DNA from: Schmidtea polychroa
Lineage: Eukaryota
Reading direction: 5' to 3'
DNA: 64,000 nt
Assembly: GCA_044892525.1 (NCBI GenBank)
Contig: CM097886.1
Location: 15,686,001 to 15,750,000 of the forward strand
The stretch's first letter is position 1, and the number at the start of each line of letters is the position of its first letter. The notes beneath the pieces are model-generated. The model was not told the origin of the DNA. It saw nothing but the letters and a program-made list of their open reading frames with translations, and did no database searches. Positions 39,358 through 64,000 of this stretch are shown piece by piece. Position numbers and translations under genes: made by a program.

Positions 39358-40611
39358 ATTTCACAAATTAAAATTTTTAAGCTGAATAAGTTATCAAGAT
39401 ATCAAATTTTATTACCAGCAATTATTTTATTATCGTTATTATCACAGATTATTACAATACCCTTAAGCAAAAATGGTCGAAGTTATTTCCTTTATCACAG
39501 ATTATCGCCCTTGGTCATTGGACATTTTGGTTTTTGTGATTTATTTTATGAAATTATTTTAAGTTTATCTTTTGTTCCAAATAAACTGATTACTCGAAAC
39601 TCAAAATTATTATTTTATAGCTGTATAACTACTTTTAAAATAATATTGTTGGCTTTTACTGGATCATTTGGCCCAATTGGTTATATTGGTGCTGCTAATA
39701 TTATTGGGGTAATTATCCAGTTATTTTGCACTATGGAATTACTAATTTTTATTGATAAATTTATCGAAGAAAGCAATATAGAATATGGCGGAATAGCAAT
39801 TTATAATTCTATTCAAGTGTGTTCAGATTTTATTTGGTTTATAATGAGCCCTGTCGTTATAAAAGATTGCAATGGTCGGATGTTCGAAGGTTTATTTCTA
39901 GCGTTTATTCATTTAAGTTCTACACAAGATCCAATTTATGCTATTCGGAATTTAATTAGTCGAAATGGACATCCGGATTTTATTAAATTATTTTTAATCA
40001 TTGTTTCGACTTTGTGTATTATATTTATTCTAAATGTGAAAATCGTTTTCCAGTTTTCAGATTATCTTGATTGTGATGAAAAACGTTTTCATGCTCATTC
40101 GTATAGATTAATAACAACTGGATCCATTCCATTTCGTTTGTTTAATGCGATTTATTTATCGAGATCGGCAGTACCTTTTTTGAGAGATCGAATTATCAAT
40201 TCGTCTTCATCAACGGAAACGTGTATCGTTACACGACATGTGCCGAGCAATATCGATGAAATGTGCTATGGTTATTCATTAATCATTCAATCTCCAATGC
40301 CAAAACCGCTCGAATTTCAAGATTACTCTATTTCGTTTTTTATTTTGAAAATTATTTCTTGTATTATTTTGCATTTGAACTGGGTATTTTACGTTTCTCA
40401 TTCGCCTGGCTTTGTTCATGAAGATAAGTTAAAGGTTTCTCGCAGCATTGTTGTGAAATCAAAGGAAGAAATTGTCCGTTTGTTGAAATGTTCATCAGTC
40501 ATCAATGGTACTATTATTGGTGTTCTTGCTGTTTTGGGAGATTTCGTAAATTTCCCAATTGTCAGTTTGATTGGTTTTGTGAATTTTGCTACGCACTGTA
40601 TCAATTTTTAA
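39358..40611 (+). CDS. Highly divergent Sec61-alpha/SecY family translocon subunit (start unresolved)
   Basis: Colinear matches to Sec61A: TGSFG..IIQLF..IDK..GGIAIY..CSDFIW..SP..NGRMFEGLFLAFIHL..AIR..R..HPD..TGSIPF..CYGY..GTIIGVLAVLGDF. The frame is open upstream of the TTG to 39358 and includes a TM1-like segment (ILLPAIILLSLLSQIITIPL). Confidence 0.85.
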   Translation: MSQIKIFKLNKLSRYQILLPAIILLSLLSQIITIPLSKNGRSYFLYHRLSPLVIGHFGFCDLFYEIILSLSFVPNKLITRNSKLLFYSCITTFKIILLAFTGSFGPIGYIGAANIIGVIIQLFCTMELLIFIDKFIEESNIEYGGIAIYNSIQVCSDFIWFIMSPVVIKDCNGRMFEGLFLAFIHLSSTQDPIYAIRNLISRNGHPDFIKLFLIIVSTLCIIFILNVKIVFQFSDYLDCDEKRFHAHSYRLITTGSIPFRLFNAIYLSRSAVPFLRDRIINSSSSTETCIVTRHVPSNIDEMCYGYSLIIQSPMPKPLEFQDYSISFFILKIISCIILHLNWVFYVSHSPGFVHEDKLKVSRSIVVKSKEEIVRLLKCSSVINGTIIGVLAVLGDFVNFPIVSLIGFVNFATHCINF

Positions 40612-43335: not shown

Positions 43336-44092
43336 TGTCGAACCCATATGTTACACACGCCCATATCTTACGCAAAAAGAAAAAAATTACTAATACAAAT
43401 TTAAATCCCGAAAATGAAATACATTTTGACACTAGAAGAAATTGAAAAAATTAAAACTTGTCTAAATCAAGGAAGTAGTTGGATTACTGACTTAGATAGA
43501 CATTCAAAAAGAAATTTTATAAAGAAAGCTGAAAACTTTATTGAAGTGGAAAATAAGCTTTATCTAAAATCAGGAGAATGTAACAAAGAAATCATTGCAA
43601 ATGATGATGAAGTTGGCCTGCACAATTTATTTGAAAGATTGCATCTCCCTGACCACACTGGGATGAAAGCAATGTATGAAAACTCAAAACTCTTGTACGC
43701 GGGCTTCAAAAAGGAAAGAATAACGCGATATGTATCTTCTTGTTTAATATGCAAGAGACACGAGCCATTACCAAGAGTTGTACCTATAATCCCAATAATC
43801 TCGGAGTTTCCCTGGGAATTGGTACAGATGGATTGTGTAGATATGCGCAATTATCAAGAAGACAATGATGGATTTGGATGGATTTTGAATATCCTAGATT
43901 CTTATTCCAAATTTTTATATTCCTTTAAATTAAATAGGCTGAAAAAGATAATTTAGAAGAACAATAATTAAATTTCATTATTTAATTGCTTTTTATATAA
44001 TATTTTGGTGTTTTTATTGCTTTTTGTTTCTTTGTGTAGAATAAAAAAATTTTTGCGTAAGATATGGGCGTGCGTAAGATATGGGTTCGACA
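43336..44092 (+). mobile_element. Ginger2/TDD-like DNA transposon, internally deleted
   Basis: 43-bp TIR starting TGTCGAACCCATAT (2 mismatches), TGT..ACA ends, 5-bp TSD TCAAA, integrase-type ORF. Confidence 0.85.
43414..43956 (+). pseudogene. Truncated Ginger-type integrase/transposase
   Basis: HHCC zinc motif (LHLPDH...CLIC) and start of the catalytic core (QMDCVD..ILNILDSYSKF); second D and E missing. Confidence 0.85.
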
Positions 44093-48269: not shown

Positions 48270-50333
48270 TAAATGCACACAATATCAAGTTAAAGTATGC
48301 ATTAATGGTACACGGCATACTTGAATACATTATGTAGTTAATGTATACATTGTCTAAGTTTATGCTTTACCTGTTATATACACACACACACACTTATATA
48401 TATATATATATAAGTTATAAGTATTTAATGTAATAATTAGTTAATATTAGAAATTATATTTAATTATATTAAATATTATCCTCTCATATACTAAGGTGAA
48501 AGAAAAGTCAGGAAACCTCGAATTAAATACTTGAAAAATTAAAATAAATTATACACAATATTACTGAAGAATATTATTTTCATTTCTCATTTTAAAAGTT
48601 TATTCAAGATCTTTAGGAACATTGTTTTGTATTCTTAAAGCATTCAGTACTGAAACCAAGTAATAAATTTTAAATCCTTAATTAAAATAACAATTTTCTC
48701 GGTTTTATTTATAAATCAGTATCTTTCATTCTGTAATTTCCCATTATAATTATACATGGGATTCATAATGTATGGGAAACTTAACTCAAATTACTTTTAT
48801 AATGCATTGGATTTTATAATAATTTGCAAAACTTTCTCTTAGCCCTATATGACGTCTTGTAGATTTTTTTTTAAATATATCAAATATCAAAGGCGGCACG
48901 AAATACGAAGCTGTCCAACATGCGCATCACTGGTCTCATTTGATATGGAATTCAACATGTTCCCAATCAGTGCGCACCTATAGTTATTAGATTTGTTTAA
49001 CCCCTTTCCAGCAATCATGATTTACAATGCACGATTCACTAGAGACTTTATTCATTCTATCTGCATTAGATGTACTCAATCAAAAGACCGTAGAGATACA
49101 GGAGATTTTACCATTCCACATGTTGATAATTACAACAAGTCAAACAGAATAAGATTTCTTTTGGATTTTTATTAATAGGATTTTTATATAAATATATTAT
49201 ATTTCAAAACGAAAGATGAATATTATTTCACATGATTCCCGCAGAGGATAATGATGGATGCCTTATTATTATTATTAATGGATGAATAAATCTATGTCAA
49301 TTAGTAATGCTTCTTATCAAATTTAATTGCTACTTGTAAAGGAAAAGTTTCCCGACGTAATCTAATTAGAAATTTATGAATTATATTATTGTTAAGCTAT
49401 TTGTATTAAAATCCTGTACATGTCAATCAATGCCTCAACCAAGGGGATCAGTAAATCGAGACACTTCTACCTTTGGCCCTGTGTAAATATGTAGTAAAGT
49501 CAAGTCAACAAATTAGTAAAAAAGGTTTTATTTTAAAAACGATTAAAATATACATTGTAAAACTTACTTACATTTCCAGGAAATCCTAGTTACGATTGGA
49601 AATCAAAAGTCTTTTAAAAAATTTTTTGAATTTCAATCCGAAAGCTCGAGAAAATGGTTTAAAATCATAGAAAAAATTTATTTCTCATGTAAATAACTTT
49701 AAAATGAATTAAATTAAAATGTTTTGTTTAAATTCTTTTGTTTTGAATATTAGAAAACTTGACAAAAAAAACTACGTCTCCAAATATAAAATATTTACTA
49801 CCAAATGAAATCACAATTATCTAAATTTATGTCATAGCAGTACTTATGCAATAATTTTTCTCTCGCATATCCGTACCAAGTCCACACATGTACATGTAAC
49901 ATTTCATAGAACAGCACCTTTCGCATTCTTGGGCACAGTATCGTAGATCTGGAATACCTTTAGCNNNNNNNNNNNNNNNNNNNNNNNNNNNNNNNNNNNN
50001 NNNNNNNNNNNNNNNNNNNNNNNNNNNNNNNNNNNNNNNNNNNNNNNNNNNNNNNNNNNNNNNNNNNNNNNNNNNNNNNNNNNNNNNNNNNNNNNNNNNN
50101 NNNNNNNNNNNNNNNNNNNNNNNNNNNNNNNNNNNNNNNNNNNNNNNNNNNNNNNNNNNNNNNNNNNNNNNNNNNNNNNNNNNNNNNNNNNNNNNNNNNN
50201 NNNNNNNNNNNNNNNNNNNNNNNNNNNNNNNNNNNNNNNNNNNNNNNNNNNNNNNNNNNNNNNNNNNNNNNNNNNNNNNNNNNNTAGCAGCATTTATTAT
50301 TTAAAACAGTAGGGTATTGTGTGGACCCGGGAA

Positions 50334-50407
50334 CAAAGACATATGACGTCATCGATGACGTCACAAAGACATATGACGTCATACCCCACCCCCGGGGGAG
50401 GGGGGGC
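50334..50407. promoter_or_regulatory. Terminal region: three CRE/ATF palindromes and a GC-rich box
   Basis: TGACGTCA at 50344, 50356 and 50374; direct repeat CAAAGACATATGACGTCAT; CCCCACCCCCGGGGGAGGGGGGG. Confidence 0.6.
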
Positions 50408-50463
50408 TTTTTTTTTTTTAAATTTTTTTTTAAATTTTTTTTAAAAATTTTTTTTAAAAATTT

Positions 50464-50615
50464 ATATTACGTTGCGGTATTTTAAAATTTATATTACGTT
50501 GCGGTATTTTAAATTTTATATTACGTTGCGGTATTTTAAAATTTATATTACGTTGCGGTATTTTAAAATTTATTATATTTTAATTATTAAATATATTACG
50601 TTGCGGTATTTTAAA
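50464..50615. repeat. 27-bp tandem repeat (4 tandem copies plus 1 offset)
   Basis: Core ATATTACGTTGCGGTATTTT at 50464, 50491, 50518, 50545 and 50593. Confidence 0.95.
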
Positions 50616-50670
50616 AACTTATTGATAAAAGTTTAATAAAATAAAATTATTATTACACACACACAATATA

Positions 50671-50949
50671 GTCTACCCGACAAAATATTCTGTTCCCCTA
50701 TGGTCACACACACACACACAATGTATAAAAATATTATTTACACACACGCAACAAGTTAGTGTTCTCATTGATATATTAATAATCTATATACTCCGAGTCT
50801 ATCCGACAAAATATTCTGTTCCCCTATGGTCACACACACACAATGTATAAAAATATTATTTACACACACGCAACAAGTTAGTGTTCTCATTGATATATTA
50901 TTAATCTATATACTCCGAGTCTATCCGACAAAATATTCTGTCCCCCTAT
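50671..50949. repeat. 122-126-bp tandem repeat (about 2.3 copies)
   Basis: GTCTA[C/T]CCGACAAAATATTCTG at 50671, 50797 and 50919. Confidence 0.95.
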
Positions 50950-51023
50950 GGGTACTGCTCACAAGGGTACTGGTCACGCTCAACAACTCGCAAGGGTATT
51001 AATAAACAATGTAATAAAACATA

Positions 51024-51101
<78 letters not shown>

Positions 51102-51313
51102 ATTTCTATCACAAATCATGGTTAACAAAAAACATAGTCGAATATTATAAAATTAAGGTATTGTGTTAGCACACACTCGTTATAATAATTAGCAATATAG
51201 TTTTTATGGTGTATCAAATCAAAACCTTTCTTTTACATTTATAGTCTATCAACCAATCAAAATCATATGGTATTAGTATAAATAAAAACATTATATTTTA
51301 AATTATTTTAGAA

Positions 51314-51842
51314 ATGTCGCAACCAAATTTTATGGAAAATGTTCTAAACGGAATTGTCACCGCGAATATAGTCGACAGCCTCAATTTCCTGATCAATCGA
51401 ACCGAACAAATCATTGAAGGTGAACATATCGATTATCAGCAGATGATGGAGATGGAATCCCTGGAAACCAAGAAGTATTACTTCAATAGAATATTTCAGG
51501 GTCTTTTCGATGAAGACATGAAATGGACAAGGATAATTGTAGGATTCACCTACATGAAGATAATCATTGCAAAAGGTCAACATGATTCAGAACATTATTA
51601 TCATTGGTCTTTAGAAGTAAGATTTCTTTTATAATCTATATTTTAATAATATTCATTTCTAGATAATCAAGTCCAAGTTTACCCCATGGATAGAAGCCAA
51701 TGACGGATGGGGTGTATTAAATAAACTGGCCTGCAATTTTAAAGAAACTGATGAAATCAAAAGAAAAATGAAAAACTATATAAAACTTACAACTGGAGTT
51801 GTTATAATGTATATTTTCTGTAGATATATGAATAAAAATTAA
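51314..51842 (+). CDS. Bcl-2 family protein, 160 aa, 2 exons (51314-51616, 51663-51842)
   Basis: BH1-like LFDEDMKWTRIIVGF in exon 1. Removing a 46-nt GTAAGA..CTAG intron gives BH2 PWIEANDGW and a C-terminal hydrophobic tail LTTGVVIMYIFC-RYMNKN. Confidence 0.88.
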
Positions 51843-51886: not shown

Positions 51887-52221
51887 TTAAAATTTATTAA
51901 CACATTCGCAATCGTCATCTCCACATTTCATTATATTTTCAACGACATGATCAATACAATCATTCGTAATATTATCTTTAGGTTCCTCTATAGGTTCATA
52001 GATTTCGTCATCAATTTCTTGAGTTTCTTCATGATTGTCAAATCCTGAATCTTGACTCTCAGCTACCCAGCCGATATTTAAGGCATTTGTAATAGATAAT
52101 ATATCCTCAATTTTTACACCAGCTATTTCTGCTAACTTTTCCAACAAAAAGTTGATTAATAATTCTAAATAATAAATAATTCGGTATTTAATTAATCATG
52201 TTAACCTTTTTCTGTAGTCAT
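51887..52221 (-). CDS. Acidic orphan protein, 97 aa, 2 exons (52221-52206, 52164-51887)
   Basis: ATG ACT ACA GAA AAA G | 41-nt GT-AG intron | AA TTA..; MTTEKELLINFLLEKLAEI...QDSGFD...CGDDDCEC. Confidence 0.7.
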
Positions 52222-53573: not shown

Positions 53574-54038
53574 TTAATTAAGTGATAATAAAAAATCTAA
53601 AAATTCTTTTCCTTCAATTATTGATTTAATTTCAGATATGATATTATCAACTATACATTTGTAATCAATATTTTTTATTCCAAGAATTACTATCTTACCG
53701 CTAGCGAATATATTTACACACATAGGGTTATATTTTATATATCTCAAAGCTGGAAATAATTCTGGTTCGTAAAAGCATGGTATTAATTTAGCCAAATTAT
53801 TTAAATTACAAGAAAAACCTATATCGGAAGTTACGGTTATCGATTGTATTTCTAAATCATAAACATTATATTCACTAGCTTTGATTATTTCCTTACACCC
53901 CATAATTCTACATTTACCAGTTTTGAAATATATTATTGGATATTTTTTACTTCTATTGATAAGTTGTTGTGGTTTCCCCACTGGAAATACCATTTTTGAT
54001 ACATCAGCTTTTGCCCTGTAATTTATATTTGAAAGCAT
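53574..54038 (-). CDS. TATA-binding protein (TBP)-like protein, 154 aa
   Basis: Repeat 2 FYEPELFPALRY..NPMCVNIFASGKIVILGIK matches TBP YEPELFPGLIY..KP..VLLIFVSGKVVLTGAK; shortened repeat 1 IIYFKTGKCRIMGCK. Confidence 0.9.
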   Translation of the reverse strand: MLSNINYRAKADVSKMVFPVGKPQQLINRSKKYPIIYFKTGKCRIMGCKEIIKASEYNVYDLEIQSITVTSDIGFSCNLNNLAKLIPCFYEPELFPALRYIKYNPMCVNIFASGKIVILGIKNIDYKCIVDNIISEIKSIIEGKEFLDFLLSLN

Positions 54039-54148
54039 TTTAATGAAATAATTATAAAAAACTCTGTTATATATATAGTTATTTTAAAAAGGAGTTCATT
54101 TAAATTATCAATATAAACAATAATTATATAGTTTAAATTTAAAAAAAA

Positions 54149-54787
54149 ATGGAATTACGAAATGATGTAGTATACCAAATCGTTGGTCCGAGTGGTAGTG
54201 GAAAAACATTATTTGTTTGTAAATTATTAAAATCTAATTTGTTCAAAACAAAATTCAACAATATTTATTGGCATAGGGGCGCCGGTGAAGAACATGGATT
54301 GACTTAATCAAGTTTCTGTCAATTGAAAAACATGAAAATAGTAAAGGGTTTTGATAAAAACTGGTCAAGTCGTTTGAAAAAAGATGATGTCATCATTATC
54401 GATGATTTGTATCAAGAAGCCAATAAAGAAAAGGATTTTAATAATTTATTCACAAAAATCAGCAGACATGTTGGTGTAACAGTTATTTTCATAACACAAA
54501 ATCTATTTCATCAAGGTGGTGCACATCGAACACGTAATTTAAATGTACAATATCTAGTTATTTTCAAGAATCCTAGAGATGCAACTGTCATCGATTTTCT
54601 TGGACGACAAGCATACCCTAATAACCGTAATTTTCTTATCAGTGCATTTCAAGATGCTACGAAAATACCTCATGGGTATATATTTCTCGATTTCACACAA
54701 CAATGTCCTGATGATATACGGGTAAAAACAGATATTTTCGACCCAAAAGGTGCCATGGTATATAAACAAAGTTTAAAACAAATTTGA
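54149..54787 (+). pseudogene. Polinton packaging ATPase (A32/FtsK-like) with in-frame TAA at codon 53
   Basis: ATG 54149; Walker A GPSGSGKT; TAA 54305-54307; Walker B IIIDD; FTKISRH, ITQN, RTRNLN, FKNPRD, HGYIFLDF. Confidence 0.93.
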
Positions 54788-55297: not shown

Positions 55298-55525
55298 ATG
55301 GGTGCTAATCCTTCATTACCAGACATTAAATTTAATATTAAATCTTCTTGTTGTAATGGAGAAGATTTGGACGAACCCAGAAGACGAAGCCGGTTTCGGT
55401 GGAGTGGCAAAATTAAACAAAAGAGTTCCGAATTCGAAAAAGGAAACCCAGAAGTGGTTATCAGACCAGCTTGCGTACAGTTTGAACAAACCAATGCAGA
55501 AACGATTCCCAACAAGAGTATATAA
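55298..55525 (+). CDS. Overprinted 75-aa ORF with N-myristoylation signature, overlapping integrase
   Basis: MGANPS (MGxxxS), SCC, basic RRRSRFRW; ACAATGG context 3 nt after the pX-like stop. Confidence 0.45.
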   Translation: MGANPSLPDIKFNIKSSCCNGEDLDEPRRRSRFRWSGKIKQKSSEFEKGNPEVVIRPACVQFEQTNAETIPNKSI

Positions 55526-56540
55526 AACATATGGAATAAATGATTTATGGCAAATGGATTTGATGGAGATGATACCTTATTCGAAAATTAACAATGGGTA
55601 TAAATATATTTTAACATGTATTGATGTATTCAGTCGGTTTGCCCGAGCAATACCCGTCAAGGCAAAATCTGCAGATGAAATGTCTAAAGCTGTTAATGAT
55701 TTATTTAAAGATGGACATCCTAATANNNNNNNNNNNNNNNNNNNNNNNNNNNNNNNNNNNNNNNNNNNNNNNNNNNNNNNNNNNNNNNNNNNNNNNNNNN
55801 NNNNNNNNNNNNNNNNNNNNNNNNNNNNNNNNNNNNNNNNNNNNNNNNNNNNNNNNNNNNNNNNNNNNNNNNNNNNNNNNNNNNNNNNNNNNNNNNNNNN
55901 NNNNNNNNNNNNNNNNNNNNNNNNNNNNAACAGTAAAGTCAAGCAAATCCTCGATAAACTGAAAATAAATCACTACTCGGTACATTCTCAATACAAAGCT
56001 GCCCATGTTGAAAGATTTAATCGAACATTGAGAGATAGATTAAAGAAATTGTTCGTGCATCAAGGTAATAAAAAATGGGTAAATGCTTTACCGAAAATAA
56101 TAACAAGTTATAATCATTCATCACATCGAGGACTTAATGGATTGAGACCGGTTGATATTACATCAAAAACAATCTATTCTAAGAAATCTGTAAAAATTGC
56201 AAAACCTAAATATAAAGTCGGTGACCATGTTAGAATTAGTAAAATTAGTGCATCACCATTTATTAAAAATTTCGATACAAATTGGAGTGATGAAGTCTTT
56301 GTAATTTCAAAAATAAATACTAGTCAGAATCCTGTAATGTATGTCATCAGTGATTATGATAACAATATTGTACAAGGAAAGTTTTATGAGCAAGAATTAC
56401 AAGTTATTCCTCCCCCAAAAGTATTTAGAATTCAAAAGATATTGAAAACTAAAAAGGTCGGCAAGGATAAACAATTCTATGTCAAATGGCATGGTTATCA
56501 AAACCCATCATGGATATCAGAAAAGGATCTAGTAAAGTGA
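55356..56540 (+). CDS. Retroviral-type (c-)integrase with C-terminal chromodomain (N gap inside)
   Basis: WQMDLMEM, LTCIDVFSRF, AHVERFNRTL, KYKVGDHVRI, WSDEVF, chromodomain IQKILKTK..FYVKWHGY..SWISEKDL. Confidence 0.96.
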   Translation: MEKIWTNPEDEAGFGGVAKLNKRVPNSKKETQKWLSDQLAYSLNKPMQKRFPTRVYKTYGINDLWQMDLMEMIPYSKINNGYKYILTCIDVFSRFARAIPVKAKSADEMSKAVNDLFKDGHPNXXXXXXXXXXXXXXXXXXXXXXXXXXXXXXXXXXXXXXXXXXXXXXXXXXXXXXXXXXXXXXXXXXXXNSKVKQILDKLKINHYSVHSQYKAAHVERFNRTLRDRLKKLFVHQGNKKWVNALPKIITSYNHSSHRGLNGLRPVDITSKTIYSKKSVKIAKPKYKVGDHVRISKISASPFIKNFDTNWSDEVFVISKINTSQNPVMYVISDYDNNIVQGKFYEQELQVIPPPKVFRIQKILKTKKVGKDKQFYVKWHGYQNPSWISEKDLVK

Positions 56541-57553
56541 ATTTTTATACTATTTTACCAAGCAATAGTTGCCCGCTTATTCATCCAGATAATCAAGCCA
56601 GTAAATTCATGGTCAATCTCCAGAATCCGATTTCTTTAAATGGGGACTGGGAAGTTGCACTGCAAGATTTTACATTCGTGTACAATACATTCCCATTTTA
56701 TAGTCAATGTAAGATTGATTTCAAAAGGAATGCTATGAAAACATGTAGCGGTATCTTTATTATCAGTAATTATGATAAAACATATCATATTCCAAATCAA
56801 CTATTAAATCAGCACTGCTCTATGTTTTACAAGGATGGATTAAATATCAGTTGTGATTTTAAACCATTTACAATAACATTCGAATATATTGAAGATGCCA
56901 AACGATTGGGTTGCAATAAGTTGAAAAATGAAGTTATGGAAACAGAATATTTATTACGCTTTAATCTATTTGAAGCAAACAGTGTAATGAGAGAAGAAAT
57001 CAAAATATCAGTGTCGTATAATAATGAAGTTGAAGAATCATTCACCTTTGCTGACGAATTATATATTGATAAACTTGATGTGTTACTTAAATATTTAAAG
57101 TACAATTGTTCACACATATTTAAAAGTTTGGACATTGTGAAAGATTTGATGTTTACCTTCAGTTTGAATGATGATATTTGCGAAGTTACATTTGATAAAA
57201 ATTTGACAAATACACTTGGATTAGAGAAGCAGCAATATCGGGAAAAATCGGCTGGTATACGTAAACCAAGAATACTTGAACATCATCAACAAATGTTCAT
57301 ATATACTAATATTATTGAGCCTATAATTGTTGGTGATTCCAGTGTTCCTCTTTTGAAATCGGTATGGATTGGAAAATATGAACATGATGAAGTTGTCAAT
57401 ATAAATATCGATAATCCCATGTATTTACCAATAGCAAGCTCATGTATAAACAATATAGAAATAAATATTCGTGACGATAGTGGAAAACTTATAAACTTCC
57501 CAAAAGACTCAAAAACTCATTTGACACTACATTTTCGTAAAGTAGATGGCTAA
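56510..57553 (+). CDS. Penton/minor capsid protein (start ATG 56510 or GTG 56537)
   Basis: FYTILPSNS, F.VNLQNPISLNGDWEVALQD, FIYTNIIEPIIVGDSSVPLL, IEINIRDDSG..INF, LTLHFR. Confidence 0.92.
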   Translation: MDIRKGSSKVNFYTILPSNSCPLIHPDNQASKFMVNLQNPISLNGDWEVALQDFTFVYNTFPFYSQCKIDFKRNAMKTCSGIFIISNYDKTYHIPNQLLNQHCSMFYKDGLNISCDFKPFTITFEYIEDAKRLGCNKLKNEVMETEYLLRFNLFEANSVMREEIKISVSYNNEVEESFTFADELYIDKLDVLLKYLKYNCSHIFKSLDIVKDLMFTFSLNDDICEVTFDKNLTNTLGLEKQQYREKSAGIRKPRILEHHQQMFIYTNIIEPIIVGDSSVPLLKSVWIGKYEHDEVVNINIDNPMYLPIASSCINNIEINIRDDSGKLINFPKDSKTHLTLHFRKVDG

Positions 57554-57908
57554 TTCCGATATTATTAGTATGTATAGTGATAGCCAATCTGGCGGTGAAT
57601 TACCATATTTTATTGGTAAACAGTACGGATCAGGTTGGTTAAAAACAATAGGGAGATTTGCACTTCCTATTCTTAAACGTATCGGTAGTTTTGGTATGAA
57701 AACTGCAAAAGATGTTATTATGAATGAACAGAAAATATTACCATCCCTAAAAACAAATGCTTTAGCTGAGTTAGGGAAGGTTCTACCTGGAGTTGCTGGT
57801 ATGTTTCAAAAAGATACGCCCCCAGCCCCAGCTCCAAAACGTAAAGGACATGGAATATCGCGTATAAACAAACGAATGAAAGGACATGGAACTATATTTA
57901 CAAAATGA
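57546..57908 (+). CDS. pVI-like/membrane-active virion protein
   Basis: QYGSG followed by amphipathic WLKTIGRFALPILKRIGSFG; basic C-terminus; lies between penton and MCP. Confidence 0.75.
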   Translation: MANSDIISMYSDSQSGGELPYFIGKQYGSGWLKTIGRFALPILKRIGSFGMKTAKDVIMNEQKILPSLKTNALAELGKVLPGVAGMFQKDTPPAPAPKRKGHGISRINKRMKGHGTIFTK

Positions 57909-59128
57909 TTTGTGGTAAATCTGAATTATGTATATTTGATAGACCATCGCCTCAAGCGGTAATCGAATTTGGGGCCTTTGAGGAAGTTTTTCCTATGAAT
58001 TCAATTACTGATAGTAGAAATGATATCGAGTTTTATATTAATGGTTCACAAACTGAATATTTAGATTTGAATGATACTTTATTGACTGTTCAGATCAAGG
58101 TTGTAGATAAAGATAGAAAAGTTTTGGATGCCAATGCAGATGTAATACCGAACAATTTCATGTTTCATACTCTGTTTAAAGATGCAGTCTTGGGATTTAA
58201 TAATATTAAGATTGAGGCCGGAAATAATACATTCATTCACAAGGCTTTGATAGAAACTATTTTAAATTACAATTCTGATACTAAAAATACCTGTCTTACA
58301 CCTATGGGTTATGCAGCAACAGATGATGAAAGAAAAAAGTGGGTTAAAGGCTCAAAATCATTCACTATGTGCTCATCATTACAACTCGATTTTATGGATC
58401 AACCGAAATATTTGCTACCAGGAGTTAATGTACACATTAGATTGAAAAGGTCTGATTCTGCATTATCTCTTACTAGTGCAACTGGTGCACCAATATGCCA
58501 ATTAGTTGATGCAAAATTATTGGTGAGAAGAGTTCGAGTAGACCCGTCAGTATTAGCTGGTCATCAATTGGGTCTTAATTCAAAACATGCAATTTATCCT
58601 TTAAAAACAAAGGAAATTGTACAATTTGCTATTGCTAAAGGTGCTTCATCATTCTATAAAGAACAAATATTTGGTGACAGAAGAATGCCTAATTTTATTC
58701 TGGTAACATTTCAAAATGAAACGCAATATAATGGATCATATACTGCTTCCAGCTCAATTTTCAAAAATTTTGGTGTTACTTCATTGACTTTGTCGAAAAA
58801 TACTGATTATAGAGAAACATATACTCAAGATTTCGAAAGCGATAATTACTGTGCGACATATATGCAGAGTATTGTTAGAAATCTGGGTTACTTAGATAAA
58901 AACTTGAATTGTGGAATAACTCTAGAAGAATTTAAAAGCAAATATCCATTTTTTACATTTGTTTTAGCCCCTGATTTTGATTTAAATCAGAGTCAACTAC
59001 CACAAAACGGGAATTTACGACTGGATATTAAGTTTGCAAAAGCTATTACTGAACCGGTACATGTTATAATATATGGAGTATTTGAAAATGAAGTTCAAAT
59101 TACTGCAAATAGAACCGTGCTAGTATAA
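57905..59128 (+). CDS. Major capsid protein (double jelly-roll, Polinton type)
   Basis: CGKSELCIF..P.Q, IEFYI, YLDLNDT, KYLLPGVNVHIRL, FFTFVLAPD, GNLRLDIKF. Confidence 0.95.
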   Translation: MICGKSELCIFDRPSPQAVIEFGAFEEVFPMNSITDSRNDIEFYINGSQTEYLDLNDTLLTVQIKVVDKDRKVLDANADVIPNNFMFHTLFKDAVLGFNNIKIEAGNNTFIHKALIETILNYNSDTKNTCLTPMGYAATDDERKKWVKGSKSFTMCSSLQLDFMDQPKYLLPGVNVHIRLKRSDSALSLTSATGAPICQLVDAKLLVRRVRVDPSVLAGHQLGLNSKHAIYPLKTKEIVQFAIAKGASSFYKEQIFGDRRMPNFILVTFQNETQYNGSYTASSSIFKNFGVTSLTLSKNTDYRETYTQDFESDNYCATYMQSIVRNLGYLDKNLNCGITLEEFKSKYPFFTFVLAPDFDLNQSQLPQNGNLRLDIKFAKAITEPVHVIIYGVFENEVQITANRTVLV

Positions 59129-59540
59129 ATGTATACAGAAACACAAAAAGTTGTCATGGAGTAAGTTTTTTGATACTGTTTAATTTTATTAAAGTAGTTC
59201 TGTTCAGGTTAATCGAATTGGAAAACAAATATTAGGAAATGAATTTGTAGGAGTTTTTCCTCTTGATAAAATTCCTTATTTGAGCAATAATCAAGCCATA
59301 ATCATCAATACTCATTCGTCTCATCTTGGTGGAGAACATTGGATAGCTATATATGTGAAACCTAGTAATATATTCGTATTCGATCCTATGGGTTTCTATT
59401 ATCCTGCTTTGTTGATATCAAAACTTCAAACAATTGGGAAACCTATTGTATATAATAAAACTATGTTTCAAAATCCATTGACTCAAACATGTGGTCAACA
59501 CTGTTTGGCATGGTTGTTGTATAAAAAATTTGATGGTTAA
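59129..59540 (+). CDS. Adenain-like cysteine maturation protease, 2 exons (59129 or 59156-59160, 59195-59540)
   Basis: 34-nt GTAAGT..AAAG intron gives MDSSVQVNRIG..FVGVFPLD; catalytic GEHW, FDPMG, FQ, CGQHC. Confidence 0.92.
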
Positions 59541-59908: not shown

Positions 59909-60189
59909 ATGAACAACAACAACAATATTCAAAGAGTTGACGGAAAGATCGTTGGAGGAATTAATGGTAAATTTATTATTTTATTATTTTATTATTTTTA
60001 ATATGATTATTAGGTACTAATCAACAAATTAAAATGAATATCGACGGACAAGCTGTAGACATGAATAGAATAAATGGTAATAGTTTACTCTTATTATCAT
60101 TATTATTTTTATTATGCTTTTAGATGGAAATGTAATAAATACTTCTGCTGGTGCTGATGCTGGAAAATTTCTTTCGAAAGGACGAAAAT
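59909..60189 (+). CDS. Three short exons (59909-59966, 60014-60076, 60124-60189), probable 5' end of the pPolB gene
   Basis: Two 47-nt GT-AG introns, all phase 1, giving MNNNNNIQRVDGKIVGGINGTNQQIK...KGRK; GTAAGT donor at 60190. Confidence 0.65.
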
Positions 60190-60236
60190 GTAAGTATTTA
60201 TTTATTGTTATAAGTTTTTAAGTTTTTTTAAACAAT

Positions 60237-60918: not shown

Positions 60919-63900
60919 GTTTGAAATACCAAAACTTTTGTAATAGTCAATATCATAATGACTGCGATGATATAATGGAAAGATATTATAGTCATAAATA
61001 TAACGGTGTCACCTACATCCTATGCCCTAAATGTGAGGTTATTGAAGTTATAACGTATAAGGAATTTTATAATAAGCATAGACTCCATCTCCAACAATTT
61101 AAACCTTCTAAGAAGTCTCTTTTCTATAGCTTANNNNNNNNNNNNNNNNNNNNNNNNNNNNNNNNNNNNNNNNNNNNNNNNNNNNNNNNNNNNNNNNNNN
61201 NNNNNNNNNNNNNNNNNNNNNNNNNNNNNNNNNNNNNNNNNNNNNNNNNNNNNNNNNNNNNNNNNNNNNNNNNNNNNNNNNNNNNNNNNNNNNNNNNNNN
61301 NNNNNNNNNNNNNNNNNNNNNNNNNNNNNNNNNNNNNNNNNNNNNNNNNAACAGCACCAATAATAATAATAATGATATAAACGAAATAAATAATCTAAAA
61401 GATCAAGTAAATAAATTAAATGAACAAATAAATAATCTAATTAATATGAATAAAAGAAAAAATAATGAAAAAATAAATTCAATACCAAGTAAAAAATCTA
61501 AAGTTATTGATGTAATCACAATAAGTGATGATGATGAAATAATCAACATAAGTGATGAGGAAATTGATAATAATAATAATAATAATAATAATAGTAGTAG
61601 TAATATTTATTATAATAATCGTATTAATAATACTAATCAAATAGGTTATGGTGTCGTAGATGTCACCAGTGATTTAAATAATAATCATATTATATTAAAA
61701 ATGGACTTTTCGTCTTTAGATTTAAAAACGGTCTCTGTACCAGAAATTTTAATAAATAAATTAAATTTATATGTAAATAAATTAAAATCATGTAAAATTC
61801 AATTTTGTCTAAAGGTGGAATTTATAAAAGATGATGAGTTACAATCTTTTGTAATCTCGAATTCCGCCCGAGTTTGGAGCGATACATTCATTGACGAAGG
61901 TATTGCTCGTTTAAATGAAAAAATAATTAAAATTAATGAGAAAGGTAGTAATTGGACTATCAATAAAATAGAATACATAAGCTTTGTTCTTACTAAATTT
62001 GCTGAAATAAGTCGATTAAGTGGTAGAAGTTTTATTGAAACCCCAAAATCTTTAAGAAACTTAAGCTGTCTCATTAATGTAGTTAATAATGACCACTTCT
62101 GCTTTTTGTATAGTTTCTTGTCAATTATTAAATATGACTGTATAAATAGGCAATATAGAAATCGCCCTAATTCCTACAATCTTTCTGAAATTAAATTTGA
62201 TCCTAATGATATGCCGATGAAACTATCAAATATAAGTAAATTTGAACAACAAAATCCGGGTTATAGTATTAATGTTCTTACTTATAACGAAAAGGCTTTG
62301 ATTGACATTTCCGATGAAGATGCAGTTATGAAACATCCCTTTATTGATATAATATACAGGAGTAAGATAGTAGGAGCCATACCTATCAATTTATTATTAA
62401 TCGAAAAGAATGATAATTATCATTATCTTGGAATCACAGACCTAAATAGATTTCTTAATTGTAGGAATAGTTCAATCACTCCTGTTTGGATTTGTAGTCA
62501 GTGGTGCCCTAGATGTTTAAACGGTTTTAGGAATGATGACGCTTTTAATAGACATAAGGGTCTTTGCGATAAAAATCAGCTTGGTACTACCTTGTACACA
62601 TTGCCTAAAAATAAATATTTAGAATTTACTGATTGGAGTAAAACAGTTACTCCTCCCTTTGTTATTTACGCTGACTTTGAGGCTATCTTACCTAAAGACA
62701 CTCGCTACTTTCAACGTCATCTGCCTATTTCTGCCGGTATGCTTTTTATTAATAATTTCACAGGCGTAAAAATTTATAAGTCGTTCACCGGTTTAGATTG
62801 TGTCGATCAATTTCTTACTGAAATTGAAATGATAGGGAAATATATTGTAACTCCTTATTATTATAAAAATTATCAAAAGAAAATGATAATTACAGATGAG
62901 CAACAATTAATGTTTGAAAACAGCACATCATGTTATTTGTGTAATAAGCCTTTAGTTAATCCAGTTAGGGACCATGATCATTTTACCGGTCTATATCTTG
63001 GTGCCGCTTGTACAACTTGTAATCTGTCGAGGCAAATTAGACATACCCTTCCTGTAGTATTTCATAATTTAAAGGGTTATGATCTGCATCATATCTTGAA
63101 ATTTGGCCTTTCAAAATATCATTCGTGGAATATTAGTTGTATTCCTTTAACCAGCGAGAAATTCCTTAGTCTTTTTGCTAGGATTGACTCATTAACTGTT
63201 AAATTTATAGACTCTTATCAATTTGTCAGCGAGTCTTTAAATAATGCTGTCAAAACTTTATCATCTTTACCCTTGACCGAATCAGAATTTCAGGGTACAA
63301 TAATAACTGCAAAGGGAATTTTTCCTTATGATGTCGCAACTTCATTAGAGGTTTTACATAACACTCATCAGTTACCACCTATTTGGAAAGATGTGACTCC
63401 TGCTGAATATGAGACAGCTCAGCGAATTTGGGTTGAAACTTCATGTACTTCACTTTTCAATTACATGATGGTTTATTTAAAACTTGATGTTTTCCTTTTA
63501 GCCGATTTTTTCCAGCAATTTAGAGCTAAGTCCATTGCTCATAACCGACTAGAGCCATTAAATTTCTTAGGGATTCCAGGTATGTCTTGGAATTCAGCCT
63601 TATTAACTTTAAACTCTCCAATTGAGCTCCTCACCGATATGGAGATGTATAACTTTTTCGAGAGCGGTATCCGTGGCGGACTAACTTTTGTAAACAAACA
63701 TTATGTAAAAACAGACCCGGATACCGCTTTGCTTTACATAGATATAAATAATTTATACGGTTGGGCTTTAAGTCAACCATTACCTTGCAGTGACTTTGAA
63801 TGGGTTACTGATGATAATTTATTAAATAATATAATTGTTGAATGCACAACGGTAGATTTAGATCTGCTTGATTATGGTTATACCATAGAAGTGGATTTAG

Positions 63901-64000
63901 AAATACCGACGTCAATTCACGACAAACTGGACGATCTTCCCGTTGCCGCTGAAAAGATGTGTGTACCGGGTTCGAAAATAGAGAAGCTGTTGCTTACACA
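60919..64000 (+). CDS. Protein-primed family B DNA polymerase (pPolB), runs off the window; absent from ORF track
   Basis: Open frame (codons at positions divisible by 3) on both sides of the gap; NNDHFCF and HY (vOTU-like), YADFE, CYLC..DHDHFTG..CTTCN, FHNLKGYD, KGIFPYD, YLKLDV..LAD, GIRGG, YIDINNLYG. Confidence 0.96.

What the first reader, a model, noticed from the sequence alone, without database searches (positions are those of the whole stretch)
51314..51842. Spliced viral Bcl-2 homolog hidden by a 46-nt intron
Seen: the ORF track stops at 106 aa. Splicing 51617-51662 (GTAAGA...CTAG, phase 0) adds PWIEANDGW (BH2, cf. WIxxNGGW) and a tail-anchor-like hydrophobic segment followed by R/K, giving 160 aa with BH1-like FDEDMKWTRIIVGF. 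The BH1 NWGR glycine is replaced by Thr and no clear BH4 is visible. Established: many DNA viruses encode Bcl-2 mimics, and the BH1 Gly lines the BH3-binding groove. Inference: an anti-apoptotic gene, possibly with altered BH3 specificity, which argues for a real infectious cycle. If the host proves to be a lineage with reduced apoptosis machinery (e.g. myxosporeans), it would point to another target cell or function.
Basis: partly seen in the sequence, partly recalled or inferred. Interest (0 to 1): 0.8.

Follow-up and report, generated by a model that had tools for sequence, protein, structure and literature searches.

The report
Maverick virus captured planarian survival gene
A virus-like jumping element, present in many copies in a planarian-type genome, carries a two-part gene related to the worm's own essential cell-survival gene bcl2-1, which is likely spliced and likely keeps infected or invaded cells from dying; Bcl-2 cargo is already known for this class of elements.

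Summary
The gene lies just inside the left terminal repeat of a 16.2-kb Maverick/adintovirus-type element with a 6-bp target duplication; at least 150 near-identical copies exist. The intron has strong comparative support. All 81 copies whose second exon could be placed (100 loci examined) have GT…TAG at the same phase-0 site, at lengths of 30–51 nt, and exon 2 is under purifying selection. No RNA junction was seen. The two exons abut without a gap on Schmidtea bcl2-1 (ACW83059.1), whose knockdown is reported to kill planarians, and an intronless sister Maverick protein folds like Bcl-xL. Corrections: the host is a planarian with caspases, not a myxosporean. The missing BH1 glycine is shared with host bcl2-1, so it is not a viral novelty. 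NDGW occurs in 1 of 81 copies. A Bcl-2 gene alone does not show an infectious cycle. Bcl-2 cargo in adintoviruses is in print, and this scan noted the same gene on another copy (e1-7879924). What I add: the likely donor is the essential survival gene, its BH2 intron is absent, and a new intron was likely gained inside the element lineage.

The parts
51314..51616 (+). Exon 1 of the Bcl-2-like gene (101 codons: alpha-1 to most of alpha-6, with BH1 K-W-T-R)
   Evidence: Pfam PF00452 E=3.8e-4, below cut-off; aligns to Smed bcl2-1 up to residue 126
51617..51662 (+). 46-nt phase-0 GT-AG intron, likely gained in the Maverick lineage
   Evidence: same site and GT..TAG ends in 81 of 81 placed copies, 30-51 nt; absent from host bcl2-1 and from the intronless Maverick family
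51663..51842 (+). Exon 2 (59 codons plus stop: BH2, linker, C-terminal hydrophobic tail)
   Evidence: ungapped match to Smed bcl2-1 residues 127-182, E=2e-8 pairwise; pN below pS in 21 of 21 subfamily pairs
50302..50307 (.). Left 6-bp target-site duplication; the same 6 bases follow the right end, beyond the window
50308..51199 (.). Left terminal inverted repeat (begins AGTAGG). Its partner lies at about 65432-66485 in window numbering, beyond the window end
53574..54038 (-). TBP-like accessory gene of the element
   Evidence: Pfam TBP E=1.1e-14
54146..54787 (+). Packaging ATPase; in this copy interrupted by an in-frame stop near 54305 (start approximate)
   Evidence: Pox_A32 weak hit; Walker A in frame upstream of the stop; 213-aa open frame in other copies
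55356..56540 (+). Retrovirus-type integrase with chromodomain (partly N in this window)
   Evidence: Pfam rve E=2.9e-7 and Chromo
56486..57553 (+). Putative minor capsid protein (label from gene order, recalled; no family hit)
   Evidence: ORF; no Pfam hit
57905..59128 (+). Putative double jelly-roll major capsid protein
   Evidence: Atlas feature hits 0.98 to clusters with PF21738 on 65% and 24% of members; recognition value below the tool's threshold, so a lead
59193..59540 (+). Adenovirus-type protease
   Evidence: Pfam Peptidase_C5 E=2.3e-6
61353..64000 (+). Protein-primed family B DNA polymerase; open frame continues to about 65081
   Evidence: Pfam DNA_pol_B_2 E=7.7e-12 and 2.9e-6; 1242 codons open from 61353

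Best explanation
This is a two-exon Bcl-2-family gene carried by a high-copy Maverick/adintovirus-type element, likely spliced by the host, likely captured from the planarian survival gene bcl2-1, and likely acting as a membrane-anchored brake on apoptosis in cells where the element is active. Shown: the gene's place in a full-length element, the conserved intron site, purifying selection on both exons, full collinearity with bcl2-1, and a predicted Bcl-2 fold for an intronless sister protein. Inferred: (1) capture went through a processed copy, or with loss of the host's BH2 intron; (2) one Maverick lineage then gained a new short intron in alpha-6; (3) the spliced 160-aa protein inserts in mitochondrial or ER membrane by its tail and sequesters BH3 helices of host Bak/Bax-type or BH3-only proteins through the retained BH1 arginine, so that the cell survives replication and integration. 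Whether this serves particles or only transposition is open.
For: Element anatomy: TIRs, 6-bp TSD, pPolB, integrase, protease, putative capsid. Intron: 100 loci examined, exon-1 end found in 87, exon 2 placed in 81, all 81 GT..TAG; lengths 30, 38, 41, 44, 45, 46, 48, 51 cover all three remainders mod 3. In 0 of 81 does the unspliced frame reach exon 2: 71 stop inside the intron and 10 run on out of frame. pN is below pS for both exons in 21 of 21 pairs of seven subfamily representatives; window vs L110 exon 2 gives 0.16 against 0.42. Exon 1 ends at bcl2-1 residue 126 and exon 2 starts at 127. The intronless Maverick family L054 passes the Pfam Bcl-2 cut-off (32.7 vs 31.4 bits). Its model has pLDDT 88.7 and pTM 0.82 and matches Bcl-xL/Bcl-2 chains, TM up to 0.70. 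The family profile hits Bcl-xL at E=8.5e-8. Host L042 is single-copy, 48% identical to L054 and 89% to ACW83059.1, which a supplement row of PMC4993586 names bcl2-1; its inhibition causes systemic cell death and lysis (PMC6970515 passage citing Pellettieri 2010; PMC4993586). Trees group the Maverick genes with L042 against other Bcl-2s: 92/97; 96/97 with two unplaced metagenomic proteins inside the group. The BH1 arginine, the hallmark BH3 salt-bridge residue (PMC9609553), is kept as W-[TS]-R in 85 of 87 copies. No LxxxGD-type BH3 killer motif is visible in the alignment (motif recalled).
Against: No transcript or junction read was seen, and no binding or cell assay exists. The BH1 glycine is absent; replacing it abolishes pro-survival activity in Bcl-2 and KSHV Bcl-2 (PMC2836074), and Thr is bulkier than the host's Ser. 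Identity to bcl2-1 is only 23%. The fold was predicted for L054 (22% identical over exon 1), not for the window's product; the alignment used contained cellular Bcl-2 proteins, and without it the model was poor (pLDDT 56.6). The 81 copies are not independent: 60 of the 100 loci are near-identical members of two subfamilies. Some copies lack the donor (L081 and L082 begin CT; L207 and L208 begin AT). Trees use about 110 columns of exon 1. A first tree with Burro and L044 rows left the grouping unresolved (35/85). The intron-bearing clade had 97/96 but 94/95, unstarred. One capture versus several is unresolved (p-AU 0.14 and 0.47). Three host paralogue loci (L031, L039, L041) also lack the BH2 intron, so its loss need not involve the element.
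Confidence: 0.68

Rival explanations
1. The gene is spliced and Bcl-2-folded but is not a plain death inhibitor. With a narrowed groove it works as a decoy or antagonist of host bcl2-1, or in a non-apoptotic role such as autophagy or innate signalling, as some viral Bcl-2-fold proteins do (recalled).
For: BH1 Gly absent; no BH3 or BH4 sequence motif; shortened alpha1-alpha2 loop; 23% identity to the donor. The intronless family has W-S-K in place of W-x-R, so the lineage tolerates loss of the hallmark arginine.
Against: Host bcl2-1 itself lacks the Gly and is reported as required for survival. The intron-bearing copies keep the arginine (85 of 87), BH2 and the tail.
Confidence: 0.2
2. The gene is now silent or neutral cargo, copied along with the element. 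The conserved intron and low pN/pS record past function only.
For: Planarian Polintons are targets of PIWI silencing (PMC8532177 passages). Many older copies are decayed. This copy's ATPase is interrupted.
Against: The youngest subfamilies (copies 96-100% identical) keep open exons, and selection is seen between these young subfamilies. The same paper reports that Polintons are de-silenced during normal differentiation.
Confidence: 0.08
3. There is no intron. The 106-aa ORF is the product, or exon 2 is reached by frameshift or readthrough.
For: No RNA junction seen. Intact vertebrate Mavericks were reported as intronless (PMC8097293).
Against: The spacer varies over all three frames, always keeps GT..TAG and mostly holds a stop; no single recoding event fits. 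Exon 2 is conserved only in the spliced frame, and abuts exon 1 exactly on the host protein.
Confidence: 0.04

Closest known systems
Schmidtea mediterranea bcl2-1 (ACW83059.1 / UniProt C9WPR4; P0004) and its orthologue in this genome (L042)
   Same: Collinear from alpha-1 to the C-terminal tail; shared short alpha5-alpha6 region and W-S-x-E stretch; BH1 without Gly (W-S-R vs W-T-R); BH2 PW..NGGW type.
   Different: 23% identity; the viral protein is 24 aa shorter (alpha1-alpha2 loop and N-terminus). The host gene has an intron of about 3 kb right after BH2 GGW; the viral gene lacks it and has a 46-nt intron 16 codons earlier. The host gene is single-copy; the viral one has at least 150 near-identical copies.
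Bcl2 homologues of adintoviruses (Starrett et al. 2021, PMC8502044)
   Same: Bcl-2 accessory gene in a Maverick/adintovirus with PolB, integrase, packaging ATPase, adenain and capsid genes (text passage; three 'Bcl2' labels in Supplementary Fig. S2).
   Different: In the passages and the stored, truncated supplement that I searched there was no Schmidtea, Dugesia or planarian entry, no mention of splicing, and no donor gene. I did not compare sequences with those elements.
Viral Bcl-2 mimics of large DNA viruses (ASFV A179L-type, gammaherpesvirus vBcl-2, adenovirus E1B-19K, iridovirus Bcl-2)
   Same: Predicted fold of the sister protein matches them (BFVD, best E=3.5e-3, TM up to 0.66); compact Bcl-2 core with a tail.
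   Different: Identity 10-22% in the top rows, so a separate capture. They belong to viruses with shown particles; most keep the BH1 G-R pair (PMC9609553).
BCL2-like domain in Burro giant LTR retroelements of planarians
   Same: A second planarian mobile element with a Bcl-2 domain (PMC6431247 passages); such polyproteins of about 3000 aa are in this genome too.
   Different: Embedded in a polyprotein, no intron, on a very long separate branch. A common origin with the Maverick gene is neither shown nor excluded.

Membership tests
Bcl-2 family (Pfam PF00452) | Profile match over the curated cut-off | tested here: inconclusive
   Exon 1 alone scores 21.4 bits against 31.4. In-frame-intron relatives score 32-34.5 bits when read through in the genome search, and intronless L054 scores 32.7. 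The window's own full product was not scored.
Bcl-2 family (Pfam PF00452) | Helical bundle fold like Bcl-xL | tested here: met
   For the intronless sister L054 only: pLDDT 88.7, Foldseek probability 1.00, TM up to 0.70 to Bcl-xL. The alignment used held cellular Bcl-2 proteins.
Bcl-2 family (Pfam PF00452) | BH1 motif (NWGR type) | tested here: inconclusive
   W and R kept, G replaced (K-W-T-R); host bcl2-1 has R-W-S-R.
Bcl-2 family (Pfam PF00452) | BH2 motif (W..NGGW) | tested here: met
   PWIEANGG in 62 of 81 copies; this copy has PWIEANDG.
Bcl-2 family (Pfam PF00452) | C-terminal membrane anchor | tested here: inconclusive
   15-residue hydrophobic stretch, mean 1.6-2.8 in seven copies from different subfamilies, followed by basic residues; short for a full transmembrane helix.
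Pro-survival Bcl-2 proteins | Binds BH3 helices and blocks Bax/Bak-dependent death | not testable with these tools
   Inferred from kinship to bcl2-1.
Bax/Bak-type effectors | Intact BH3 (LxxxGD; motif recalled) | tested here: not met
   The aligned alpha-2 reads LNFLINRTE.
Maverick/Polinton (adintovirus-type) element | [quoted passage not shown] | tested here: met
   Ends at 50308 and 66485, with TAAAAC on both sides; two other copies also have 6-bp duplications.
Maverick/Polinton (adintovirus-type) element | Protein-primed PolB and retroviral-type integrase | tested here: met
Maverick/Polinton (adintovirus-type) element | Capsid, packaging ATPase and protease genes | tested here: met
   Protease; ATPase weak hit with Walker A, interrupted in this copy; major capsid by Atlas lead; minor capsid by position only.
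Maverick/Polinton (adintovirus-type) element | Forms infectious particles | not testable with these tools
   No data.

The most novel reading that the evidence does not exclude
Planarian Mavericks took the worm's essential survival gene bcl2-1, lost its intron, gained a new one of their own, and spread it to well over a thousand loci, often at both ends of an element. When these elements are de-silenced in differentiating cells they supply a splice-gated extra dose of survival signal that bends tissue turnover in their favour. With Burro retroelements carrying a Bcl-2 domain too, apoptosis would be the main filter that planarian mobile elements have evolved to beat.
Probability: 0.2. Interest if true: 0.75.

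Novelty: new variant of a known kind. Interest (0 to 1): 0.5.

Why it matters
Bcl-2 cargo in adintoviruses has so far been a label on genome maps. Here the likely donor is a named, RNAi-tested essential gene in an animal model with routine knockdown and much RNA-seq, so whether a Maverick's accessory gene suppresses host cell death becomes testable. It is also a clean candidate for spliceosomal intron gain inside a Maverick gene, with the host gene and an intronless sister lineage as comparators; intact vertebrate Mavericks were described as intronless. It suggests that a Bcl-2 lineage without the BH1 glycine can be pro-survival. The surprise is moderate, because viral Bcl-2 mimics are common.

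Tried and rejected
RNA evidence: no RNA holder listed. Four of the 12 listed runs were laid, all as contigs of guessed or unknown type. No joint at 51616/51663 was among the 15 shown, with 246 more not shown, and one contig of X3 runs unspliced over the 3' end of exon 1, the intron and exon 2; no conclusion either way. Protein database with exon 1: 3 hits, all unnamed short unspliced gene calls; the two more distant ones match subfamilies found in this genome. With L054: none. Viral contigs: the alignment had no searchable stretch; exon 1 gave 2 weak 40-residue matches, E=4e-4, treated as chance and not followed. Single-sequence fold of L054 was poor. Exon 1 against the PDB by sequence: best E=0.13, though Bcl-2 family chains fill the top 12 of 15 rows. 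A motif scan for a host Bak/Bax BH3 in 11 loci gave two unconvincing matches, so no complex prediction was run. A published S. mediterranea BCL2 primer did not match L042 at up to 3 mismatches; uninformative across species. Pellettieri 2010 and a second planarian apoptosis paper were not held, so the bcl2-1 phenotype is cited second-hand. An accession I recalled for bcl2-1 was wrong; the right link came. Rejected: myxosporean host; viral origin of host L042, since it carries an intron right after BH2 GGW like 5 of the 8 other host paralogue loci checked; frameshift or readthrough.

Full report
1. Observation. The ORF at 51314 stops after 106 aa. The stretch 51617-51662 is 46 nt, begins GTAAGA, ends TTCTAG and follows 101 whole codons. 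The next 180 nt encode 59 aa with PWIEANDGW and a hydrophobic tail; the total is 160 aa. Exon 1 alone has a weak Pfam Bcl-2 match (E=3.8e-4, 21.4 bits, cut-off 31.4); exon 2 alone has none.

2. Setting. The gene starts about 115 nt inside the inner edge of the left terminal inverted repeat of an element running from 50308 to 66485 in window numbering (16.2 kb), with TAAAAC on both sides. The element has a TBP-like gene, an ATPase (interrupted by a stop in this copy), an rve integrase with chromodomain, an adenovirus-type protease, a putative double jelly-roll capsid (Atlas lead) and a protein-primed PolB. It is a Maverick/Polinton of the adintovirus type. The genome is 781 Mb. A protein search with exon 1 scored 150 of 2384 candidates, and all 150 were 96-100% identical; a second subfamily filled another 150 places. 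These are lower bounds.

3. Host. A single-copy host gene, L042, is 89% identical to a Schmidtea mediterranea Bcl2-like protein. The genome also holds polyproteins of about 3000 aa with a Bcl-2 domain, as described for planarian Burro elements (PMC6431247, passages). The host is therefore a Schmidtea-like planarian. It has 14 caspase-domain matches at E<=1e-8 among 34 candidates and several Bcl-2 paralogues, so the reduced-apoptosis scenario falls.

4. The intron, by comparison of copies. I examined 100 distinct loci: 30 of the window's subfamily, 30 of a second, and 40 others. The exon-1 end motif was found in 87 and missed in 13; exon 2 could be placed in 81. The acceptor was set by counting seven codons back from the BH2 PW, not by looking for AG. 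All 81 begin GT and end TAG; lengths are 30, 38, 41, 44, 45, 46, 48 and 51 nt. Of the 6 unplaced, L200 and L205 show GT..AG and an exon 2 by eye; L195 has its exon 2 about 2.6 kb further on and L229 runs into unrelated DNA. In 0 of 81 does the unspliced frame reach exon 2. The site is kept in subfamilies whose exon 1 is only 44% and 31% identical, with different intron interiors. Exon 2 shows pN below pS in all 21 pairs of seven representatives; window vs L110, L049 and L046 give 0.16/0.42, 0.12/0.56 and 0.10/0.27 (ungapped register, so pairs with L190 are inflated). Against: the copies are far from independent, about eight subfamilies, and four copies seen lack the GT. RNA evidence could not be obtained.

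5. What the product is. Exon 1 aligns to Smed protein P0004 up to residue 126, and exon 2 from residue 127 without a gap. A sister family in another full-length Maverick (L054; anatomy) has the gene as one 144-aa ORF that passes the Pfam cut-off. Folded with a 48-row alignment, it gives pLDDT 88.7 and pTM 0.82 and matches Bcl-xL and Bcl-2 chains (24 matches at E<=0.001, TM up to 0.70), with viral Bcl-2s next. The alignment included cellular Bcl-2 proteins, and the single-sequence model was poor. A profile of the family alone, without outside Bcl-2s, finds Bcl-xL at E=8.5e-8 and 53 proteins among 1.84 billion representatives; of the 10 looked up, the three with an informative name are Bak or Bcl-xL-like or uncharacterised vertebrate entries.

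6. Origin. P0004 (ACW83059.1) is listed as the best nr hit of bcl2-1, E=2e-131, in a supplement row of PMC4993586. That paper reports total lysis after bcl2-1 RNAi, and PMC6970515 states that its inhibition causes systemic cell death and lysis, citing Pellettieri 2010, which I could not read. Trees on exon-1-equivalent stretches group the Maverick genes with L042 against other host and vertebrate Bcl-2s (92/97; 96/97, with two unplaced metagenomic proteins inside the group). Burro and L044 rows were left out of both; with them the grouping was unresolved. The intron-bearing forms are one branch (97/96, 94/95). The host gene has a different intron, about 3 kb, directly after BH2 GGW, as do 5 of 8 other host paralogue loci checked; none of the four Maverick copies checked has a standard donor there. 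The simplest order is host gene, then a captured copy without the BH2 intron, then one intron gain in alpha-6. One capture or two is unresolved (p-AU 0.14 and 0.47).

7. Motifs. BH1 reads W-T-R or W-S-R in 85 of 87 copies and W-S-R in host bcl2-1, so the glycine loss is inherited. The arginine, which makes the hallmark salt bridge to BH3 aspartate (PMC9609553, passages), is kept. Loss of this glycine kills pro-survival activity in Bcl-2 and KSHV Bcl-2 (PMC2836074, passages); this is the main reason for doubt. No BH3 or BH4 sequence motif is visible, but alpha-1 aligns with the Bcl-xL BH4 helix and is helical in the model. The window copy differs from most: NDGW in 1 of 81.

8. Mechanism. Most likely (0.68): the host spliceosome removes the intron; the protein anchors by its tail and binds BH3 helices, delaying death of cells in which the element replicates or integrates. 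Splicing is inferred from strong comparative evidence; anchoring, binding and protection are inferred from kinship. Polintons are PIWI targets and are de-silenced during normal planarian differentiation (PMC8532177, passages), which gives a setting. The gene does not by itself show particles.

9. Known and new. Starrett et al. note Bcl2 and IAP homologues in adintoviruses (PMC8502044; passage; supplement rows; that file was cut when stored, so planarian entries could be unseen). Intact vertebrate Mavericks were reported as intronless (PMC8097293, passages). Introner insertions in dinoflagellate Maverick-like elements are described (PMC11957031, passages). Searches (listings only; some searches listed 20 of 54, 20 of 24 and 12 of 52 papers) showed no paper on a spliced Bcl-2 in a planarian Maverick; the library lacks most subscription journals and Repbase. 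Earlier notes of this scan describe the same gene on other copies. Other papers seen as passages only: PMC3566077 and PMC7586133 (one supplement row).

10. Verdict. Real, well supported by comparative genomics, and a variant of a known kind. Interest 0.5.

Noticed in passing
G000, places listed; L061-L066, L077-L078: Many elements carry the Bcl-2 gene at both ends. Among 150 places there are 14 convergent pairs 4.7-16.2 kb apart, against 1 divergent and 1 same-strand pair. In four inspected cases the inverted repeat has grown to 1.4-4.4 kb; in three it replaces part of the polymerase, in one the polymerase frame is intact. Possibly end-copying during protein-primed replication.
   Followed up: partly
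window 52166-52221 (- strand) and 59909-60190 (+ strand): Other accessory genes of the element look spliced: a short ATG exon and a GT..TAG intron ahead of the ORF at 51887-52195, also seen in L110 and L219, and a small gene with three short exons bounded by GTAA..TAG introns after the protease. Not tested further.
   Followed up: partly
window 53574-54038 (-): TBP-like gene (Pfam E=1.1e-14), also beside the intronless Bcl-2 family; several earlier notes of the scan cover it.
   Followed up: no
L046-L050, L059, L060, L219: Where the intron length is a multiple of three, the unspliced frame ends at the acceptor's own TAG after a run of Leu/Ile/Phe, which would give a short protein with a hydrophobic end. 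Not shared by the 46- and 44-nt subfamilies, so probably a by-product of T-rich introns.
   Followed up: partly
L031-L037 (G000:C4:89.9-90.8 Mb): Seven near-identical host Bcl-2-family genes with canonical NWGR and no BH2 intron lie in one cluster.
   Followed up: no
P0007, P0008, P0014 (unnamed metagenome proteins): Distant relatives with a similar N-terminal GLL stretch; the P0007 cluster lies on contigs up to 13.7 kb. Their carriers are unknown; they could be other planarian or viral Bcl-2s.
   Followed up: no
window 34939-36594 (-), 39358-40611 (+), 43414-43956 (+): Host-side features: a cadherin-repeat exon (Pfam E=2e-48), a 417-codon hydrophobic open frame without a Pfam hit, and an integrase zinc-binding fragment.
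   Followed up: no
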